A stretch of DNA of 62,561 nt from a virus. Taxonomy: Duplodnaviria > Caudoviricetes. The stretch is from the IMG/VR virus record IMGVR_UViG_3300045993_000669, positions 1 to 62,561 of that record. One strand, given 5' to 3'. The position numbers were made by a program, and so were the translations under genes. The stretch's first letter is position 1; every line of letters starts with the position of its first letter. The notes beneath the pieces were generated by a model that was not told the origin of the DNA, did not search any database, and was given only the letters and a program-made list of their open reading frames with translations. Positions 37,925 through 44,809 of the stretch are shown one piece after another.

Positions 37925-38241
37925 TCGAGAGCGTCCAAACTCTCTGCGATGCCTGCGCGTATGTTCCTCTTTCACTAAAAGAGGGCAAGGAACACGGCGC
38001 ATTTTTCCTGTTCGGCCTTTTCTGGGTTTTGTTCTTTGCTTTTTGGTACACATTCGGAAAACGTCGTGACTGAGATTGCAGGCCTCTCCTGCGCGTGCGG
38101 CGAGACGGACCTGATCGCGGTGGCGCCCGGATCGGAGCCGGAAAAGGTGGACCTGTTTACCGCCCGCATCGCGATCTCCCATGGCACCCCCGCCGTGGCT
38201 TGGTGCGCCGCGTGCTGGCCCACGAAAGCGGCGGCGGTAAG

Positions 38242-38751
38242 GTGACGGACTACGCCCCGCTCCCCGGCGTGATCCTGTTCCTGGATTTGGCGGGCACCAT
38301 CGGCTGGGCGGCAGGGCGCAAGGGCGACGATCCCCCGGCGATGGGCGCGATCAAACTCCCGGACGGCCCGCACTACGGCAACCGGCTGATGGCGGCGGAG
38401 AACGCGCTGATCGATTTGATCGAGACGCACCGGCCCGCCAGGATCGTCTGTGAGGCGCCGCTGAGGCTCAAGGCGCAATCCAACGCTGCGACGGCCCGCT
38501 GGCTGTATGGCCTGTTGGCCTACTGCCACGGCGAGGCTGCGCGATACCAACTGCCTGTGGAGGAAGTGGACGCCGACAAATGCCGCAAGGCGGTGCTGGG
38601 CCAATCGCGGGTGACGGCGGACCAGAAGGCGCGGGGGCTGACGATGAAAATCCTTTCGTTGCGATATTGCCGATATCGGGGATGGAACCCACCGACGCAC
38701 GATGCCGCCGATGCCGCGGTGATGTTCTATTACGTAATGACGAGGCGATGA
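38242..38751 (+). CDS. RuvC-like Holliday junction resolvase
   Basis: LFLDLAGTIGWA, IVCEAP, HDAADA acidic motifs. Confidence 0.75.
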   Translation: MTDYAPLPGVILFLDLAGTIGWAAGRKGDDPPAMGAIKLPDGPHYGNRLMAAENALIDLIETHRPARIVCEAPLRLKAQSNAATARWLYGLLAYCHGEAARYQLPVEEVDADKCRKAVLGQSRVTADQKARGLTMKILSLRYCRYRGWNPPTHDAADAAVMFYYVMTRR

Positions 38752-38776
38752 GACTCTTTGAATTAACTAAGGAATG

Positions 38777-38806
38777 TTGTAGGTTCGTTCCGTCGCGTGG
38801 AATAAT
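38777..38806 (+). promoter_or_regulatory. Putative promoter for pentamer array 1
   Basis: TTGTAG-18 nt-AATAAT with extended TG. Confidence 0.5.
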
Positions 38807-38818
38807 CCACCGGCCCAA

Positions 38819-38927
38819 GGCTGGGCTAGGATCGGCGTGTCCGGGACAGGCAGGGCGTGGCAGGCATGGCTGGTCAGGGATCGGCAAGGCTTGGCGGGGC
38901 AGGGATCGGCGCGGCAAGGCGAGGCAA
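38819..38927 (+). repeat. GGC-NN pentamer array 1 (putative guide RNA): 8 + 13 pentamers split by GGCA
   Basis: Strict 5-nt periodicity parsed by hand. Confidence 0.9.
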
Positions 38928-38931
38928 TCGG

Positions 38932-38957
38932 GGCGGGGCAGCAATGTCCCGCCTTTC
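38932..38957 (+). terminator. Hairpin terminator closing array 1
   Basis: GGCGGGGCA-GCAA-TGTCCCGCC followed by TTT. Confidence 0.65.
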
Positions 38958-39053
38958 GCTATTGCGAGCGACGCACAATGGTATAAGGTGACCGGCGGCG
39001 GCAGGGGTGCGCTAACACCCCAGACCGCCTGATCCGAACCTTGGAGATGAGCC

Positions 39054-39671
39054 ATGGCCCGAACTGTGAAAAAGCCTACCACGAATCCGTCTCAGACGCA
39101 GGGCATTGAGTTGCCGCGTTTCGATCTTCAACGAATGCAAATCCGACTGATCGGGGACGCCCCGCTGATTTGCCACGCATGGAGCCAAAAAGCCAAACAG
39201 CAAATGCTGGACAAACAGACGAAGCAGGCCAAGGCTGCGCGAGCGGCCAAGGACCCGATGCAGGACTTCCTTGATAGCCTCTATCCTTTTCCCGGCGGCG
39301 GATACGGCTTCCCCGCTATTGGGTTGAAGTCTTCCGCCGTCGATGCGTGTTCTCATGTTGAGGGAATAACGAAAGTCGAAGCGCGCGGCGCATTCCACAT
39401 CCAGGCCGAACTGGTAAAGATTGAAAGTGGCGAACCAACCATGCGCGAAGACATGGTAAGAGTCGGCCTTGGAACGGCTGACATCCGATATCGCGGACAG
39501 TTTTTAAAGTGGGCGATCAATGTTCCGATCACGTTCAACGCCGGGGTGTTGTCCGTTGGGCAGATCACAAATCTGTTCAACGTCGCCGGATTTTCAATCG
39601 GAATCGGCGAATGGCGGCCGCAGCGGGACGGCATGTTCGGGCTGTTCCACGTTGCCCGCGAGGGCGAATAA
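39054..39671 (+). CDS. Cas7/RAMP-like RNA-binding protein (VIPR-like effector)
   Basis: IGDAPLICH, GFPAIGLKSSAVDA, C-terminal G-rich loop GIGEWRPQRDGMFGLF; flanked by pentamer arrays. Confidence 0.7.
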   Translation: MARTVKKPTTNPSQTQGIELPRFDLQRMQIRLIGDAPLICHAWSQKAKQQMLDKQTKQAKAARAAKDPMQDFLDSLYPFPGGGYGFPAIGLKSSAVDACSHVEGITKVEARGAFHIQAELVKIESGEPTMREDMVRVGLGTADIRYRGQFLKWAINVPITFNAGVLSVGQITNLFNVAGFSIGIGEWRPQRDGMFGLFHVAREGE

Positions 39672-40219
39672 TGGCAGCGCGTCCATCAAGGCGGCAGGCG
39701 GAACCGGCCCGTCCGCCGCCGCGACCGGCCAATCCGCAAATGATTTATCGTTTCACGGCTGGGGCGCAACTTCCGGTGGACGCGCAAACTGCTGGCGAGG
39801 CGTTGGAACGGATACGGCGGCACCGTGGGGCGTTCTTCACGCCGGCCGATGTCGTGGAGGCGTCCCGCTTGCCCCGGGCGTCGTTGCATCGTTGTTTCGA
39901 ATGGGATGATGCGGTGGCGGCGGCTGCCCACCGGATCACGCAGGCCGGATACCTCATCCGGCACGTCGAAGTCATTCCGGCCGCCGGGACGAACACGCCG
40001 CCGGCGAGGGCTTTTGTTTCTGTCACTCAGGACGGCGGGCGGTCGCGGTCTTACACGTCGATAAGTGCGGCGATGCAAGACGCAGGATTCCGCGCGCAAA
40101 TACTGGCCCAGGCACTCGCGGACGTTGAGTCGTTCGTCCGGCGGTATGACCAGTATTATGGCGTTGCTGAATTGATGTCGGTGGTAACCGCGAAGATCAA
40201 AACGGCGGCGGCGGAGTAG
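39671..40219 (+). CDS. Partner protein of the RAMP-like gene
   Basis: TAATG coupling; LHRCFEWDDAVAA..HR..QA motif. Confidence 0.75.
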   Translation: MAARPSRRQAEPARPPPRPANPQMIYRFTAGAQLPVDAQTAGEALERIRRHRGAFFTPADVVEASRLPRASLHRCFEWDDAVAAAAHRITQAGYLIRHVEVIPAAGTNTPPARAFVSVTQDGGRSRSYTSISAAMQDAGFRAQILAQALADVESFVRRYDQYYGVAELMSVVTAKIKTAAAE

Positions 40220-40223
40220 ACTT

Positions 40224-40690
40224 GGCAGGCGAGGCATGGCGCGTCCACGCAAGGCGGGGAGCGGCGCGGTAAGGACGGGCTGGGCGGGGCATGGCAGGCC
40301 AGGACGGGCAAGGCGTGGAGTGGCCGGGATCGGCTCGGAACGGCTGGGCAGGGCAGGCGTGGAACGGCAGGGTGCGGCATGGCATGTCGCGGCGGGTCTA
40401 GGCGAGGCAGGCGAGGTTGGGCACGGCTAGGACGGGCGTGGAGTGGCATGGCGAGGCTGGGCAGGCGTGGCGGGTCGGGGCACGGTCGGGCGGGGCGCGG
40501 CTGGGACGGGCGCGGCAGGGCAGCCAAGGCGGGGCATGGCAACGCACGGCGAGGCAGGCACGGAATGGCAGGGCGAGCAAGGGCACGGTGGGTCAAGGCA
40601 TGGCAGGGCAGGCGAGGAGTGGCACGGCAAGGATCGGCAAGGAATGGCACGGCGCGGCGCGGCTCGGCAGGCTTGGATCGGGAACGGCAT
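40224..40690 (+). repeat. GGC-NN pentamer array 2 (putative multi-guide RNA): 8 units delimited by GGCA
   Basis: Units of 13, 11, 10, 10, 11, 6, 10 and 11 pentamers. Confidence 0.92.
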
Positions 40691-41012
40691 GAGCCTGACC
40701 GACTACCAGATCAGGAGCCTTCGCACCCTGGCAGCCGCGGGCGTGCCTCTGCCGGATATCGCGAAGCAGTTGGGCGTGCCGGTTTCCCGCGTCAGCCACG
40801 CGGCCCATTCGCTGGGGGTTGTCCTGACGACGAAGCGTTACAAGACCAGGATGGAGAAGCGCGCGGCCAGGGACACAGATGCGTCGAAGGCGGAACGGAC
40901 GCTGGCGACGGCGCACGCGCTGAACGACGCCAAGACCGCGCTCCGCCGGGAGATCGCGCTGGCGAAGGCCGAGGCGGCAACTTCGCCGCCGTACAGGGGA
41001 TCATGGGAATGA
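40689..41012 (+). CDS. HTH protein
   Basis: GVPLPDIAKQLGVPVSRVS. Confidence 0.65.
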   Translation: MSLTDYQIRSLRTLAAAGVPLPDIAKQLGVPVSRVSHAAHSLGVVLTTKRYKTRMEKRAARDTDASKAERTLATAHALNDAKTALRREIALAKAEAATSPPYRGSWE

Positions 41013-41371
41013 CCGGAACACACAGGGCCAACGGCGGCTACGCGAGGGCGGAGAAGCTATCGACCGCCCGCCGTTCCGAGATCGCACGGAAAGCGGCGAA
41101 CGCGAGATGGGCCAAATCCGCAAATGATTTACCAATCGACACGGCTGTTGTCGAAGCCTGGAACAGCGGAATCCTTTCGCAAAAGCAAATCGGCCGGAAA
41201 TTCAGGATCACGGAAAACCGGGTGGCGTATCTGGTCCGTGCCGCCCGGCTGGCTGGGATGAAGGTCCGTGCTGCTCGGGATAAGGTGCCGCACGAGGCTG
41301 TGGTGACGCGGGCGGAGTTCGAGGCGTTGGAGCGGCGGATCGCGGCGTTGGAGCGGGGGAAACGGGGATGA
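41009..41371 (+). CDS. Protein with GG.ARA.KL....RSEIARKAA.ARW motif plus HTH
   Basis: Motif visible; LSQKQIGRKFRITENRV. Confidence 0.65.
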   Translation: MTGTHRANGGYARAEKLSTARRSEIARKAANARWAKSANDLPIDTAVVEAWNSGILSQKQIGRKFRITENRVAYLVRAARLAGMKVRAARDKVPHEAVVTRAEFEALERRIAALERGKRG

Positions 41372-41567
41372 GGACGGTTATCCTGCTGCCCCTCCGGCTC
41401 GGCCATTTCGCCACGCGCAGGAATATCGCGATCACTTCGCAGAATCGGCACGCGTTCTCCGCGGCGCAACACGACGGCCTGATATCGATCACGCCGATTA
41501 CCAGCACGACGGCCTGGGTTGAACTGACCGCCAAGGGCCGGGCCGAGATCGATCGGAAGGGGGGAGC

Positions 41568-42263
41568 GTGAAGCCACGCTGCGAGATCATTGGGAACGCC
41601 ACGCTGATTTTAGGCGATTGCCGCGAGATACTCCCGACGCTCGGGCCGGTGGATGCCGTGGTGACCGACCCTCCGTATGGGATAGCGACGGTCTGGAAGG
41701 GCGGAAACGGTTATGGTTGGGGACGTGATCGTGCTGAACGCAATGCTTGGGATAGTGCGCCTCCGTCACCCGAGACAATCGGCACGATCAGAGATATTTC
41801 TAATCAGCAGATAATCTGGGGAGGAAACTACTTCCCGCTTCCTCCGTCACGCGGCTGGCTTGTCTGGAAAAAACCCGGCAGTGGATTCAGCCTGTCCGAT
41901 GCAGAATTGGCGTGGACCAACATCGATCAGCCAGTCCGATGCTTGGAAGTGCATAGACTTACGGCTCTGAATGGGGAGTTGTCGCCCGGCGGCCCGGTGC
42001 GGCCTGATCACCCTACACAGAAGCCAATCGCACTGATGGCATGGTGCTTGGGTTTCGTTTCAGGCACGATTCTCGACCCCTTCATGGGCAGCGGCACGAC
42101 CGGCGTGGCCTGCGCGCGGCTCGGGCGGCGGTTCATCGGCATCGAGATCGACGAGAATTATTTCAACATAGCCTGTCGCCGGATCGAGGACGCCCAACGG
42201 CAGGCCGATCTGTTCGTGACGCCCGCGCCCGTGCCCAAGGCGGTCCAGACCGAACTGCTCTGA
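41568..42263 (+). CDS. N6-adenine/N4-cytosine DNA methyltransferase (beta class)
   Basis: VTDPPYG, HPTQKP, LDPFMGSGTTG. Confidence 0.92.
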   Translation: MKPRCEIIGNATLILGDCREILPTLGPVDAVVTDPPYGIATVWKGGNGYGWGRDRAERNAWDSAPPSPETIGTIRDISNQQIIWGGNYFPLPPSRGWLVWKKPGSGFSLSDAELAWTNIDQPVRCLEVHRLTALNGELSPGGPVRPDHPTQKPIALMAWCLGFVSGTILDPFMGSGTTGVACARLGRRFIGIEIDENYFNIACRRIEDAQRQADLFVTPAPVPKAVQTELL

Positions 42264-42593: not shown

Positions 42594-43994
42594 ATGGTTG
42601 ATGGATCGCTCTTCGGGCTGCGCCAGCCGCCGTCCAACCAGCAGGCCGAACAGGCCCTGCTTGGCGCGATCCTGTCCAACAACAAGGCCATGGCGCGGTG
42701 CGAGGGGCTGACGCCGGACCACTTCATCGATCCCGTGAACGGGCGGATTTTCAGCGAGTGCCAGCGGCTGATCAATGCCGGGCGCCTCGCCGATCTCCTG
42801 ACCCTGCGGACCATCTTTGAAAACACCGGGTTCCTGGAAGAAGCCGGGGGAATCGCCTATCTCGCGGGACTTCTCACGGCCACGACCGGGATTATCAACA
42901 CCACCGAGTACGCCCGGGTGATCGCCGACACGGCCCGGCTGCGGCAGGCCATCGACATCGGGGAACGGCTGGTGAACGAAGCCTACGCGGGCGGCGGCGA
43001 CCCGCAGAGGCTGTTCCTGGACATAGCGGCGGACCTGGACAGGCTCGGGGCCGCGCGCCGGGAGAACGCCACCACGACCCTGGCCGATGCCATGCGGCAG
43101 GCCGAAGAGGCCATGGCGCGGGCGCAGGACGGCCAGACGGCGGGCGTCTCCACCGGCTTCCGCTCCTTCGATCTGCGGCTTGGCGGATTGGAGCCGGGAT
43201 TCGTCTACGTCCTGGCCGGACGCCCATCCATGGGGAAATCGAGCCTCGGTCACCAGATCGCGATGAACGTGGCCCGCGCCGGGGTTCCCGTGCTGGAATT
43301 TTCCCTGGAAATGTCAGCCGCACAACTCGGCCGGCGGACCCTGGCGACGGCGGCGAACGTACCGATCGAAGCCATGAAATCGGGCCGCGTGAACATGCTG
43401 GACGCCGAGGCCATCGTGCGCGCCAGGGCCGAACTGTCATCGCTGCCCCTGGCGATTATCGACGCGGGCGGCCAGACGCCAGGGCAGATCGCGGCGGCGG
43501 CGCGTGCCCAGAAGCGCAAGGCCGGTCTCGGCCTGATCATGATCGATCACCTGAACCTCGTGCGTGCCGAGGACGCGGACGCCAAGCACGGGGGGACCTG
43601 GGCGACGGAGCGGGCCAGCGGCGCCGTTCTGGAAATGGCCAAGGCATGCGATTGCCCCGTGCTGCTGCTGGCGCAACTGAGCCGGGGCGTTGAAGGCCGG
43701 GAGGACAAGCGCCCGGTTCTGTCGGATCTGCGGCAGGCGGGCGCCATCGAGCAGGACGCGGATGCGGTCGGGTTCGTGTACCGGCCTGAATACTATCTCG
43801 GGCATGAGCCACAGGCGAAAACCGGGGAGAAGGCGGAATCCTTCGCCGCGCGAAGAAACGATTGGTTTGCCGATAAGGAGAAACACAAAGGCAGTGCAGA
43901 GGTCATCTGGGCAAAGGTGCGAGACGGGGAACCCGGAATCGACAAGCTACGGTTCGACGCTCAGACGGCCACGTTTTGGGAAGAACCCAGGTGA
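42594..43994 (+). CDS. dnaB: Replicative DNA helicase
   Basis: AEQALLGAIL, AGRPSMGKS, LAQLSR, SDLRQAGAIEQDAD. Confidence 0.95.
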   Translation: MVDGSLFGLRQPPSNQQAEQALLGAILSNNKAMARCEGLTPDHFIDPVNGRIFSECQRLINAGRLADLLTLRTIFENTGFLEEAGGIAYLAGLLTATTGIINTTEYARVIADTARLRQAIDIGERLVNEAYAGGGDPQRLFLDIAADLDRLGAARRENATTTLADAMRQAEEAMARAQDGQTAGVSTGFRSFDLRLGGLEPGFVYVLAGRPSMGKSSLGHQIAMNVARAGVPVLEFSLEMSAAQLGRRTLATAANVPIEAMKSGRVNMLDAEAIVRARAELSSLPLAIIDAGGQTPGQIAAAARAQKRKAGLGLIMIDHLNLVRAEDADAKHGGTWATERASGAVLEMAKACDCPVLLLAQLSRGVEGREDKRPVLSDLRQAGAIEQDADAVGFVYRPEYYLGHEPQAKTGEKAESFAARRNDWFADKEKHKGSAEVIWAKVRDGEPGIDKLRFDAQTATFWEEPR

Positions 43995-44809
43995 GCAACG
44001 CGGCCCGGGAGTGGGCGTTCAACCTCCCCATCACCGGACCTAGGAAGTCCGTCCTAGTGGCTCTGGCGCAACATGCCGATGAGCAGGGGCTTTGCTGGCC
44101 GTCCATATCCCGTCTCGTGCTTTATTCCGGGTCCCAGGAGCGGGCCGTCAGGAACGCGCTGCGTGACCTGGAGGAAGCCGGTTTGGTGATCACTGACCGG
44201 TCAAAAGGACGGGTCGCGAGCCACTACAGGCTATCGTTCAACCCGGCATCTGATGCAAAAGACCCGGCACATGATGCCCCGTTGCCAGAACCCAACCCGG
44301 CATCTCATACCATCCAACCCGGCACGTCATACCGCAACCCGGCATCTGATGCCGTTCAACCCGGCACCACATGCCCCCTAATAGTCAATGAACAGTCAAT
44401 AGAATCGTCAATAGAATCGTCAGGGCGATTACCCAGGAAGCGCGTCAAAGCGAAACCGGAAAAGGAACCCGATACCGTCATCCCGGATTGGATCGATGCG
44501 CGGTCCTGGCAAGACTTCCTCGACCATCGGAAAAAGATGCGGCGGCCTCTCACGGCTGGGGCAACGCGGCTCCTGATCGGAAAACTCGACGGCCTCCGAT
44601 CGAAGGGATTTAATCCTAACGAACTTTTGGACACGGCGACAATGAACGGCTGGCAGGGGGTGTTCGAGCCGAAGACCGCGAACGGGCAGCGGGCGCCGCC
44701 GGCATCAAAAATCGCATGGATGAAAAACATGTTCGGCCCACAGGCCGATCCCGAGCAAGACCGGTTCGATCTCGACCTAAACCCTGAAAGGCCCAAAGAC
44801 CATGAGTAA
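43991..44809 (+). CDS. Replication initiator (HTH_36 / lambda O-like)
   Basis: KSVLVALAQHADEQGLCWPSISRL; internal iterons; C-terminal WQDFLDHRK...NGWQGVF. Confidence 0.85.
   Translation: MSNAAREWAFNLPITGPRKSVLVALAQHADEQGLCWPSISRLVLYSGSQERAVRNALRDLEEAGLVITDRSKGRVASHYRLSFNPASDAKDPAHDAPLPEPNPASHTIQPGTSYRNPASDAVQPGTTCPLIVNEQSIESSIESSGRLPRKRVKAKPEKEPDTVIPDWIDARSWQDFLDHRKKMRRPLTAGATRLLIGKLDGLRSKGFNPNELLDTATMNGWQGVFEPKTANGQRAPPASKIAWMKNMFGPQADPEQDRFDLDLNPERPKDHE
44238..44372 (+). repeat. Origin iterons, 6 x ACCCGGCA core
   Basis: Copies at 44241, 44262, 44295, 44317, 44337 and 44359 inside the initiator gene. Confidence 0.8.

What the first reader, a model, noticed from the sequence alone, without database searches (positions are those of the whole stretch)
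40228..40292. First unit of array 2 spells a protein motif when every third target base is skipped
Seen: NN = GA AT GC CA AA GG GC GC AA CG TG GG AT, which as codon positions 1-2 can read E-I-A-Q-K-G-A-A-K-R-W-G. This is the common phage motif ...RSEIA+KAA..RW. This genome's own version lies at 41078-41116 (EIARKAANARWAK; 17 of 26 bases match, in phase), so it is similar but not a perfect self-target. Inference: the code is NN-x with the skipped base on the wobble position, making targeting immune to synonymous escape. Unit B reverse-complemented reads L-Q-V-D-E-R-T-T-F-R-W, which is HTH-like but weaker.
Basis: partly seen in the sequence, partly recalled or inferred. Interest (0 to 1): 0.85.

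Follow-up and report, generated by a model that had tools for sequence, protein, structure and literature searches.

The report
VIPR guide-RNA array in a phage
The repeats are guide RNAs of a phage VIPR system, a recently described RNA-guided gene-silencing system that reads two bases and skips one, and the first unit matches a conserved motif in a small gene carried by other phages.

Summary
Bases 40228-40292 are 13 pentamers (GGC+NN), and their NN string reads E-I-A-Q-K-G-A-A-K-R-W-G at codon positions 1-2. The 17/26 match to the phage's own gene at 41078 is real, but on its own it is at chance level.

The locus is a VIPR system (Viral Interference Programmable Repeat; three bioRxiv preprints, 2026):
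- a Vipr RAMP protein at 39054-39671 (profile E=1.5e-38 to the solved SUSP1 Vipr);
- an accessory-like gene at 39671/39740-40219;
- two same-strand GGY/NN arrays, 38819-38927 and 40224-40688, totalling 10 units separated by 4-nt GGCA slips.

For unit 1 I found likely natural targets. One metagenome contig matches 23/26, with the first 11 NN perfect and in codon phase. Four of 19 viral contigs encoding the same ~77-aa protein family (C-terminus EIARKGAAKRWGK) match at 21-23/26. This happens only at gap 1; gaps 0, 2, 3 and 4 and shuffled guides give 21 or less.

No targets were found for units 2 and 8. The other seven were checked only against DNA already fetched. Expression could not be tested.

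Verdict: correct reading, but the system is already known. This is a new member with a specific, testable target prediction.

The parts
38819..38927 (+). Upstream vrRNA array (array 1). It holds unit 38819-38858 (8 NN), a 4-nt GGCA slip at 38859-38862, and unit 38863-38927 (13 NN).
   Evidence: There is a period-5 signal. It lies in the intergenic gap between the RuvC-like gene and vipr.
39054..39671 (+). vipr gene: a 205-aa RAMP-type protein (phrog_4652).
   Evidence: A profile of 63 homologs hits PDB 36pp_D, 'SUSP1 Vipr protein', at E=1.5e-38. The single sequence gives E=0.0032 over the G-loop. The GGY-binding residues are conserved. It matches phrog_4652 at E=1.4e-25. There are 4524 homologs, all unnamed.
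39671..40219 (+). Accessory (vap-like) gene, phrog_15946. The real start may be the ATG at 39740.
   Evidence: It matches phrog_15946 at E=2.9e-21. BLAST clustering finds homologs next to vipr in 25 loci, the window included. It has no Pfam, NCBIfam, PADLOC or PDB relative. The Atlas record starts at residue 24.
40224..40688 (+). Downstream vrRNA array (array 2). It has 8 complete units separated by GGCA slips at 40224, 40293, 40352, 40406, 40460, 40519, 40553, 40607 and 40666. The units are U1 40228-40292, U2 40297-40351, U3 40356-40405, U4 40410-40459, U5 40464-40518, U6 40523-40552, U7 40557-40606 and U8 40611-40665.
   Evidence: Autocorrelation is 0.56 at lag 5. GC skew is 0.3-0.4. No Rfam family matches. 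No single ORF spans the array.
40228..40292 (+). Unit 1 of array 2, the subject of the finding. It is a 13-NN guide that decodes to E-I-A-Q/H-K/N-G-A-A-K/N-R-W/C-G-I/M.
   Evidence: The NN string and decoding are. Natural matches at gap 1 are L130 at 23/26, L137 and L149 at 23/26, and L140 and L146 at 21/26.
41078..41116 (+). The phage's own copy of the targeted motif (EIARKAANARWAK), inside gene 41009-41371. It matches unit 1 at 17/26 (65%).
   Evidence: The score is. The module is homologous to the target family: 61% identity over 28 aa, E=4e-8, and hhalign probability 95%.
38710..38741 (-). Partial self-match of unit 8, 18/22 at gap 1. It is in codon phase with the C-terminus (DAAVMFYYVMT) of the RuvC-like gene 38095-38751. 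This is a lead only.
   Evidence: The hit appears. Three of 200 shuffles reach 18, with 10 units tested. No better match was found among 3 homologs.

Best explanation
The window is a 62.5-kb phage genome from wetland and pond metagenomes. Its early region carries a VIPR system.

What is shown here:
- a Vipr (ancestral RAMP) gene at 39054-39671;
- an accessory-like gene directly downstream;
- two arrays of GGY+NN pentamers on the same strand, abutting these genes;
- the arrays divide into 10 units of 6-13 pentamers, separated by 4-nt GGCA slips.

What is inferred from the published mechanism: each unit is transcribed and becomes a vrRNA. One Vipr protomer binds each GGY, forming a helical filament that presents the NN dinucleotides. 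These pair with double-stranded DNA in which every third base is skipped. The bound complex represses transcription of the target.

For unit 1, shown here: the NN string matches, only with a one-base skip and in codon phase, the conserved C-terminal motif (…RR.EIA.KGAAKRW…) of a ~77-aa protein family. That family is carried on other viral contigs and in bacterial genomes, next to P63C/anti-repressor-like or XRE-protease regulator genes.

Inferred: unit 1 lets this phage silence that gene in competing phages or prophages, whatever their synonymous codon choice. The phage's own diverged copy of the motif (65% match) is spared.
For: Vipr identity:
- A profile of 63 array-linked homologs hits PDB 36pp_D 'SUSP1 Vipr protein' at E=1.5e-38 over nearly full length. 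A weak Csm5 (RAMP) hit follows at E=0.11.
- Residues aligned with SUSP1 R138, D177, W178 and R179, which contact GGY, are R147, E186, W187 and R188 here. In the alignment they are kept in 62/63, 53/63 (D or E), 47/63 (W, F or Y) and 63/63 sequences.

Gene-array linkage:
- Of 114 sources with arrays (112 viral-contig and two phage-record loci, and the window), 83 have a Vipr-HMM hit within 2.5 kb, and 82 of those 83 are on the array strand. No locus has arrays on both strands.

Unit anatomy:
- Positions 1-3 were fixed as GGC by the parse, position 4 is purine-biased, and position 5 is uniform.
- In-phase runs cluster at 9-16 units, as published for vrRNAs.
- The slip unit is GGCA in 186 of 216 slips.

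Targeting by unit 1:
- Metagenome contig L130 matches 23/26, with NN1-11 perfect, in phase with an ORF ending RRKEIAQKGAAKRWSK*.
- Of the 120 nearest family proteins, 100 allow 21/26 or better. The other nine units reach at most 75%.
- On 19 viral loci encoding the family, gap 1 gives a maximum of 23, with 4 sites at 21 or more. Gaps 0, 2, 3 and 4 give maxima of 17, 18, 19 and 18. In 500 shuffled guides the maximum reaches 21 once and never exceeds it.

Published rule and function.
Against: - No RNA evidence is available, so transcription, processing and RNP formation are inferred.
- No structure model could be made.
- The single-sequence similarity to SUSP1 Vipr is weak (E=0.0032, C-terminal part only), so this is a distant clade.
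- There is no invariant 3' tail or pseudoknot between units, as type II vrRNAs have. The match to the preprint's 'staggered arrays' rests on a figure legend only.
- The metagenome scan gave 3 stretches (2 distinct sequences) for 20 specified bases. That number may be about what chance gives, and I could not run gap controls in that collection.
- The 19 viral loci and the 120 proteins were chosen through the family that the unit-1 pattern itself found, so those tests are not fully independent.
- Exact scans of viral contigs with unit-1 windows gave 0, 1 (a chance hit, 20/26) and 0 stretches.
- None of 401 sampled genomes of one class, and none of 3 MAGs, match with 3 or fewer mismatches.
- No targets were found for unit 2 (0 hits) or unit 8 (2 distinct hits, without extension). 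The other seven units were compared only with the window and the fetched loci, which showed no gap-1 signal.
- Unit 8 has an 82% self-match, whereas the preprint saw no self-hits at 80% or above.
Confidence: 0.85

Rival explanations
1. The locus is a VIPR system, but the fit of unit 1 to the EIA.KGAAKRW motif is a coincidence helped by a very large, conserved protein family. On this view the true target of unit 1 is something else or is unknown.
For: - The self-match is at chance level.
- The metagenome scan returned only 2 distinct sequences for a 20-base pattern, one of them plainly unrelated.
- The family has at least 3443 members, so some member may fit a loosely similar string.
- The follow-up tests used loci and proteins selected through that first hit.
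- There are no hits in 401 genomes or in three exact viral scans.
Against: - The fit is to the family consensus, not to one odd member: the median is 22/26 over the 120 nearest proteins.
- It is in phase and occurs only at gap 1.
- None of the other nine guides and almost no shuffled guide approaches it.
- The L130 hit also shares the upstream, unsearched part of the module, GG.ARA..LS..RR.
Confidence: 0.1
2. Unit 1 acts on the phage's own gene 41009-41371 through the partial 17/26 match. On this view it is self-regulation rather than interference with rivals.
For: The own site lies in the same motif, in phase, only about 800 bp downstream of the array. Unit 8 also has a partial match within the phage, next to the locus.
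Against: - A 65% match is at the level of random sites in this genome.
- It is below the 80% used for natural targets, and the preprint found no self-targets at that level.
- Other phages carry much better sites, at 81-88%.
Confidence: 0.04
3. The arrays are not guide RNAs. They could be protein-coding, as GenBank annotates the equivalent stretches in two actinophages. They could also be structural nucleic-acid elements: G-quadruplex or R-loop DNA, binding sites on DNA, or an antisense Rho-loading site.
For: - Equivalent arrays are annotated as CDS in Mycobacterium phage Donkeykong (gp48) and Gordonia phage UmaThurman (gp40).
- There is strong G over C skew on the sense strand.
- No RNA data are available.
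Against: - A 5-nt period with 4-nt slips cannot conserve a reading frame, and no single ORF spans array 2.
- The arrays are tightly linked, on the same strand, to a protein homologous to one solved in complex with exactly such RNA.
- The variable positions of unit 1 carry target information at gap 1, which none of these models predicts.
Confidence: 0.02

Closest known systems
VIPR systems (Viral Interference Programmable Repeat): type II of Escherichia phage SUSP1 and a Pseudomonas fulva prophage (bioRxiv 10.64898/2026.04.26.720920, .720927 and 10.64898/2026.10.15.759431)
   Same: - It has a Vipr RAMP protein with the same G-loop and thumb residues.
- It is a two-gene locus flanked upstream and downstream by GGY/NN pentamer arrays on the same strand.
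- Guides are about 9-16 units long.
- The best natural matches follow the 1-nt skip rule, with the skipped base at wobble.
- The targets lie in other phages' genes.
- The locus sits in a phage.
   Different: - The protein is only distantly related (single-sequence E=0.0032).
- There is no invariant 3' tail or pseudoknot after each guide.
- Units abut and are separated only by a 4-nt GGCA slip.
- The accessory gene has no recognisable relation to anything named.
- The host is probably an alphaproteobacterium from wetlands, not an enterobacterium or a pseudomonad.
'Staggered' vrRNA arrays of other VIPR types (legend of fig. S18 of 10.64898/2026.04.26.720920)
   Same: Guides follow each other without spacers, and the end of one marks the start of the next with a 1-nt offset. 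This fits the 4-nt (5 minus 1) GGCA slip between units here and in related loci.
   Different: I saw only the legend. The figure, the type assignment and the example loci are in material I could not see, so the equivalence is inferred.
Class 1 CRISPR-Cas effector backbones (Cas7/Csm/Cmr RAMP filaments on crRNA)
   Same: - The protein has a RAMP fold family with a glycine-rich loop, and there is a weak profile hit to Csm5.
- One protomer binds per short RNA segment.
- Bases are flipped periodically.
- The function is RNA-guided recognition of foreign DNA.
   Different: - There is no CRISPR repeat-spacer array, no other cas genes and no adaptation module.
- The guide is noncontiguous (2 of every 5 RNA bases pair with 2 of every 3 DNA bases).
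- The system is phage-encoded.
- According to the preprints it represses rather than cleaves in most types.
TRAP-type RNA binding (trp RNA-binding attenuation protein on GAG/UAG triplets with 2-3-nt spacers; recalled, not from a call)
   Same: A conserved triplet recurs about every 5 nt and is bound by one protein subunit per repeat.
   Different: In TRAP the triplets are the whole signal and the spacers carry no information. Here the spacers carry the target specificity. The proteins are unrelated.

Membership tests
VIPR system | Encodes a Vipr protein (minimal RAMP: RRM core, G-loop, thumb) | tested here: met
   The profile of A1 hits PDB 36pp_D 'SUSP1 Vipr protein' at E=1.5e-38, positions 18-206 of 210. 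The single sequence gives E=0.0032 over the G-loop.
VIPR system | Residues that hold the GGY bases (SUSP1 R138 in the thumb; D177, W178 and R179 in the G-loop; H17) | tested here: met
   The window has R147, E186, W187, R188 and H41. In 63 homologs the counts are R147 62, D/E186 53, W/F/Y187 47, R188 63 and H41 36.
VIPR system | vipr flanked by same-strand tandem GGY/NN pentamer arrays in intergenic DNA | tested here: met
   The arrays are 38819-38927 and 40224-40688. Across 114 sources with arrays (the window among them), 83 have Vipr within 2.5 kb, 82 of them on the same strand.
VIPR system | GGY conserved while NN is hypervariable | tested here: inconclusive
   Within arrays, position 4 is G 36%, A 34%, T 18%, C 12%, and position 5 is uniform. 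Positions 1-3 were fixed by my parse. Comparison between close relatives was not possible: contigs from four other runs were identical, and the nearest loci are only 47-60% identical in Vipr.
VIPR system | Guides of about 9-16 repeats | tested here: met
   The window's units have 8, 13, 13, 11, 10, 10, 11, 6, 10 and 11 NN. In-phase runs in 123 sources cluster at 9-16.
VIPR system | Invariant structured 3' tail after the repeat tract (type II) | tested here: not met
   Units abut through a 4-nt GGCA slip with no tail, and no Rfam family, including hammerhead, matches. The preprint describes tail-less 'staggered' arrays in other types, so this argues against type II, not against VIPR.
VIPR system | Accessory vap gene (vap1-6) | tested here: inconclusive
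   A conserved gene follows vipr. BLAST clustering finds it in 25 loci, the window included. It has no relative in Pfam, NCBIfam, PADLOC or PDB. The vap families are defined in supplements I could not see.
VIPR system | Natural targets follow the 1-nt skip rule at 80% NN match or better, mostly in coding DNA with the skip at wobble | tested here: met
   This is met for unit 1 only: 23/26 in L130, L137 and L149, and 21/26 in L140 and L146. All are in phase, and none reach 20 or more at gaps 0, 2, 3 or 4. Units 2 and 8 gave nothing. The other seven were not searched in the collections; against the window and fetched loci they showed no gap-1 signal.
VIPR system | No self-target at 80% or above | tested here: inconclusive
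   Nine units have self-hits no better than shuffled guides give. Unit 8 has 18/22 (82%) at 38710-38741, and 3 of 200 shuffles reach this.
VIPR system | vrRNAs expressed, bound by Vipr, and repressing targets | not testable with these tools
   No RNA holder is listed among the runs. This requires experiments.
CRISPR-Cas | Repeat-spacer array with cas operon (adaptation and effector genes) | tested here: not met
   No 25-40-nt direct repeats with spacers appear in the tandem and periodicity scans. The neighbours are RuvC-like, GcrA-like HTH, methyltransferase, DnaB and O-like genes, and PADLOC finds nothing.

The most novel reading that the evidence does not exclude
Unit 1 is a family-level guide. 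By reading only codon positions 1-2 of the most conserved peptide module (GG.ARA..L..RR.EIA.KGAAKRW), one RNA could silence a whole family of genes across divergent rival phages and prophages. That module is shared by small ~77-aa proteins and by the N-termini of P63C/anti-repressor-like proteins.

The phage's own copy of the module (EIARKAANARWAK) would have diverged at amino-acid-changing positions to fall below the recognition threshold. This would make self/non-self discrimination at the level of a protein motif. Unit 8 and the RuvC-like gene may be a second example.

In addition, the GGCA 4-nt slip would be the processing or register signal that separates guides in tail-less arrays.
Probability: 0.35. 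Interest if true: 0.6.

Novelty: new member of a known kind. Interest (0 to 1): 0.42.

Why it matters
VIPR was described only in 2026 and tested in two gammaproteobacterial systems. This locus is a distant member from an uncultivated wetland phage.

It shows the same one-base-skip, wobble-skipping logic, recovered independently from sequence. It also gives a concrete target prediction: unit 1 against the EIA.KGAAKRW motif of a widespread small phage gene, with the phage's own diverged copy as a built-in negative control. That pair could be used to measure mismatch tolerance and self-avoidance.

The survey here adds three points:
- They are punctuated by GGCA slips.
- In at least two deposited actinophage genomes they are annotated as protein-coding genes, which matters for annotation.

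None of this changes the known mechanism.

Tried and rejected
Ideas held before the protein was identified, and dropped once the Vipr match appeared:
- a TRAP-like protein-binding RNA;
- G-quadruplex or R-loop DNA;
- an antisense Rho-loading site;
- a primase-site cluster;
- a partition centromere;
- a coding repeat.

The tetrapeptide-repeat gene of mycobacteriophage Tweety (PMC2884959, passages read) has a 12-bp coding repeat and is unrelated. Literature searches on pentanucleotide repeats found nothing relevant. A search for VIPR in actinophages found no paper holding both, and the main text of the first preprint does not mention Mycobacterium, Actinobacteria or Alphaproteobacteria.

Rfam with permissive thresholds over 38000-41500 gave only one match, at E=0.94. 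The promoter and terminator scan gave nothing above shuffles.

No RNA holder is listed among the sequencing runs. Contigs from four runs laid on 38700-40800 were identical where they truly matched, so they gave no information on guide turnover.

A local seed search with guides from all fetched arrays against 1.1 Mb of fetched loci gave only low-complexity hits.

Target scans that found nothing useful:
- unit 1 NN1-9 (0 stretches);
- unit 1 NN5-13 (1 stretch, 20/26, chance);
- unit 1 NN1-12 with the fourth dinucleotide half open (0);
- unit 2 NN1-9 (0);
- unit 8 NN1-9 (3 stretches, 2 distinct, 18-19/22 with no extension);
- unit 1 with up to 3 mismatches in 3 MAGs and in 401 genomes of one class (0 hits, and 0 in the backwards control).

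The search for related loci with the single protein 41009-41368 found one partial relative only. The RuvC-like protein has only 3 homologs in the protein collection, and none fits unit 8 better than the phage's own gene. The accessory protein has no relative in PDB and only unnamed viral clusters in the Atlas.

Full report
**1. The observation.**
Window 40228-40292 is 65 bases that parse into 13 pentamers, each a constant triplet (mostly GGC) followed by two variable bases. The variable bases read GA AT GC CA AA GG GC GC AA CG TG GG AT.

The own-genome site at 41078 matches 17 of 26 informative bases with one base skipped. It lies in the frame of ORF 41009-41371.

As a statistic, however, the self-match is nothing special:
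- With the arrays masked, gap 1 gives six sites of 17/26 or better in the window, the best being 18 at another place.
- Gaps 0, 2, 3 and 4 give four, three, three and two such sites.
- In 300 shuffles of the dinucleotide order, 99% reach 17 or more, with a mean of 4.6 such sites.

**2. Anatomy of the region.**
The stretch 40224-40688 is one long G-rich array with a 5-nt period. Autocorrelation is 0.56 at lag 5 and GC skew is 0.3-0.4. It lies between two + strand genes. A shorter array lies at 38819-38927.

Nine 4-nt slips (GGCA followed directly by the next triplet, GGC or in one case GCC) cut array 2 into eight units of 65, 55, 50, 50, 55, 30, 50 and 55 nt. Every length is a multiple of five. 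One slip cuts array 1 into units of 8 and 13 pentamers.

The window is the whole record, a 62,561-bp virus contig. It is present in wetland and pond metagenome runs.

The neighbouring genes form a temperate-phage early and replication region:
- a RuvC-like resolvase (38095-38751);
- phrog_4652 (39054-39671);
- phrog_15946 (39671-40219);
- a weakly GcrA-like HTH protein (40689-41012);
- the gene with RSEIARKAANARW (41009-41371);
- a DNA methyltransferase;
- DnaB;
- an O-like initiator.

**3. The same thing elsewhere.**
A distant blastn of the region against phage records matched only the array. It hit 23 records: 20 Mycobacterium, 2 Gordonia and 1 Aeromonas phages. In Donkeykong and UmaThurman the equivalent stretch is a GGC+NN array of the same kind in the early operon, annotated as a hypothetical CDS.

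By my estimate (an inference), a pattern of 24 specified bases should occur about once or less by chance.

Of 123 sources (122 loci plus the window), 114 have arrays of ten or more units, and none has arrays on both strands. The unit is GGC-R-N. With GGC fixed by the parse, position 4 is G 36%, A 34%, T 18% and C 12%, and position 5 is uniform. Spacing is 5 nt (3635 cases), 4 nt (116) and 6 nt (5). The 4-nt unit is GGCA in 186 of 216 slips, usually with 7-13 pentamers between slips.

Clustering the ORFs within 2.5 kb gave one dominant family, the homologs of 39054-39671, in 69 loci. A second family, the homologs of 39671-40219, is in 25 loci. Both usually abut the arrays. With an HMM of the first family, 83 of the 114 array sources have a member within 2.5 kb, and 82 of those 83 are on the array strand. 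The other 31 include plain microsatellites, arrays at contig ends and possibly solo arrays.

**4. Identity of the protein and of the system.**
The 63-sequence profile of the first family matches PDB chain 36pp_D, 'SUSP1 Vipr protein', at E=1.5e-38 over nearly its whole length. A weak hit to the RAMP Csm5 follows. The window protein alone gives E=0.0032 over the glycine-rich loop.

That name led to three bioRxiv preprints of 2026:
- 10.64898/2026.04.26.720920: I read the abstract, the Results, four Methods sections and passages.
- 10.64898/2026.04.26.720927: I read the abstract and the first part of the Results.
- 10.64898/2026.10.15.759431: I read the abstract and one Methods section.

They describe VIPR systems as follows:
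- A minimal RAMP protein (Vipr), usually with one accessory gene (vap), is flanked by intergenic arrays that give vrRNAs of 9-16 YNNGG repeats.
- One protomer binds each GGY.
- The NN bases pair with double-stranded DNA in which one base is skipped between dinucleotides.
- The skipped base mostly falls on the codon wobble position.
- Natural targets, called at 80% NN match or better, lie in satellites and rival prophages, and binding represses transcription.
- The Discussion states that skipping the wobble base would defeat escape by synonymous mutation.

The SUSP1 residues that hold GGY are R138, D177, W178, R179 and H17. They align with R147, E186, W187, R188 and H41 of the window protein and are largely conserved in the 63 homologs.

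**5. How this locus differs from the studied ones.**
The protein is a distant relative. There is no invariant tail or pseudoknot after each guide, and no ribozyme. Guides abut, separated only by the GGCA slip.

The preprint mentions 'staggered' arrays in which neighbouring vrRNAs overlap by 1 nt (legend of fig. S18). A 4-nt unit in a 5-nt lattice fits that description, but I did not see the figure. Three of the five related loci found in MAGs (L125-L127, of which two are labelled Rhodospirillaceae; Vipr 54-60% identical) have arrays downstream of the two genes, and two of these three show GGCA slips.

The accessory gene has no relative in Pfam, NCBIfam, PADLOC or PDB. I cannot assign it to vap1-6, or the locus to one of the seven types, because those definitions are in supplements.

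**6. Does unit 1 have a target?**
Exact scans of viral contigs found nothing useful:
- NN1-9 gave no stretch.
- NN5-13 gave one, which extended to only 20/26.
- NN1-12 with the fourth dinucleotide half open gave none.

A scan of metagenome contigs with NN2-11 (20 specified bases) gave three stretches. Two are the same AT-rich sequence, 22/26 in a 52-aa open frame, and look like chance.

The third, L130, matches 23/26, with NN1-11 perfect. It is in phase with a 76-aa ORF that ends ...LGGAARAKALSAERRKEIAQKGAAKRWSK*. It shares the upstream, unsearched part of the module with the window's own gene: 61% identity over 28 residues, E=4e-8, hhalign probability 95%.

The ORF belongs to a family of at least 3443 proteins of about 77 aa. 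Its C-terminal consensus is EIARKGAAKRWGK. Unit 1 fits that consensus at 24/26 if Arg is CGN, which is my arithmetic.

Further tests point the same way:
- Of the 120 nearest members, 100 allow 21/26 or better (median 22). The other nine units reach at most 55-75%. Of 200 shuffled guides, tested on the first 40 proteins, one reached 21.
- The family occurs on viral contigs: 19 loci.
- On their DNA, both strands, unit 1 at gap 1 reaches 23/26 twice (L137, L149) and 21/26 twice (L140, L146), with eight sites at 20 or more.
- Gaps 0, 2, 3 and 4 give maxima of 17, 18, 19 and 18, with no site at 20 or more.
- In 500 shuffled guides at gap 1 the maximum is 21 once and never higher.

In the loci examined, the small gene is convergent with one of two kinds of gene. 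In L130 and L137 it is a P63C-domain or phrog_2384 gene, with weak anti-repressor-like hits in L130. In L149 it is an XRE-metalloprotease-type regulator. So it sits in regulatory regions.

**7. Weak points.**
- At the 20-base level, the metagenome hit count (two distinct sequences) may be about what chance gives. I could not run other gaps there.
- The 120 proteins and 19 loci were reached through the family that the pattern found, so their agreement partly restates that the family motif is conserved.
- No match with 3 or fewer mismatches was found in 3 MAGs, or in 401 sampled genomes of the class of one of them.
- Unit 2 gave no exact 9-NN hit. Unit 8 gave two distinct hits without extension. 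The other seven units were not searched in the collections; against the window and the fetched loci they showed no gap-1 signal.
- Unit 8 has an 18/22 match inside the phage, at 38710-38741 on the minus strand. It is in phase with the C-terminus of the RuvC-like gene. Three of 200 shuffles reach this value, and ten units were tested. It is a lead, not a result.
- No RNA data exist for this phage in the runs listed, and no structure could be predicted.

**8. Verdict.**
The thing is already known as a kind: VIPR, described in 2026. This locus is a new and distant member with tail-less, GGCA-punctuated arrays. Unit 1 has a credible, testable target, namely the conserved C-terminal motif of a small gene of rival phages. 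The phage's own diverged copy is spared.

I put 0.85 on this reading as a whole. That is about 0.93 that the locus is a VIPR system and about 0.8 that unit 1 is aimed at this family.

Noticed in passing
L001 2956-3342 (Mycobacterium phage Donkeykong gp48) and L002 3016-3339 (Gordonia phage UmaThurman gp40): GGC+NN arrays of the same kind are annotated as hypothetical protein-coding genes. The neighbours gp49 and gp50 (Donkeykong) and gp39 and gp41 (UmaThurman) are homologs of the window's vipr and accessory genes. Twenty-three phage records matched the array by distant blastn: 20 Mycobacterium, 2 Gordonia and 1 Aeromonas. These are probably VIPR loci with the guide arrays mis-annotated as CDS.
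   Followed up: partly
window 39731-39747 and 41115-41131: There is an exact 17-nt direct repeat (0.02 expected by chance), with looser similarity extending on both sides. One copy spans the probable start of the accessory gene. The other lies directly after the RSEIARKAANARWAK motif of gene 41009-41371, in a different reading frame. It may be a regulatory site or a recombination junction.
   Followed up: partly
window 38710-38741 (minus strand) versus unit 8 (40611-40665): Unit 8 matches the end of the phage's own RuvC-like gene at 18/22 with one skipped base, in codon phase (DAAVMFYYVMT). Three of 200 shuffles reach this. It may mean that unit 8 aims at RuvC-like genes of relatives, but only 3 homologs were available and none fits better.
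   Followed up: partly
array loci L003-L122 and the window: The 4-nt slip between guides is GGCA in 186 of 216 cases. Slips are usually 7-13 pentamers apart, and the distance between them is mostly an exact multiple of five. This could be the register or processing signal of tail-less arrays.
   Followed up: partly
31 of 114 array-bearing sources (e.g. L003, L031, L076, L099; L082, L090 and L112 are plain microsatellites): Some arrays have no Vipr gene within 2.5 kb. A few are perfect pentanucleotide microsatellites, some lie at contig ends, and some with diverse NN may be solo guide arrays of the kind the third preprint describes.
   Followed up: no
window 43976-44809, with tandem repeats at 44293-44422: The O-like replication initiator gene contains internal tandem repeats (periods 22 and 12). 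This resembles a lambda-type origin inside the initiator gene.
   Followed up: no
window 40689-41012 and 41568-42263: A small HTH protein with weak, below-threshold similarity to the cell-cycle regulator GcrA lies near an N6/N4 DNA methyltransferase. This pairing suggests an alphaproteobacterial host, as do the labels on two of the nearest Vipr-bearing MAGs (Rhodospirillaceae).
   Followed up: no
L130, L137, L149: The ~77-aa target gene is convergent with a ~360-383-aa gene. In L130 and L137 this is a P63C-domain or phrog_2384 protein that carries the same GG.ARA..L..RR..IA..AA..RW module at its N-terminus. In L149 it is an XRE-metalloprotease-type regulator. The module is thus shared by several phage regulatory-region genes.
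   Followed up: partly
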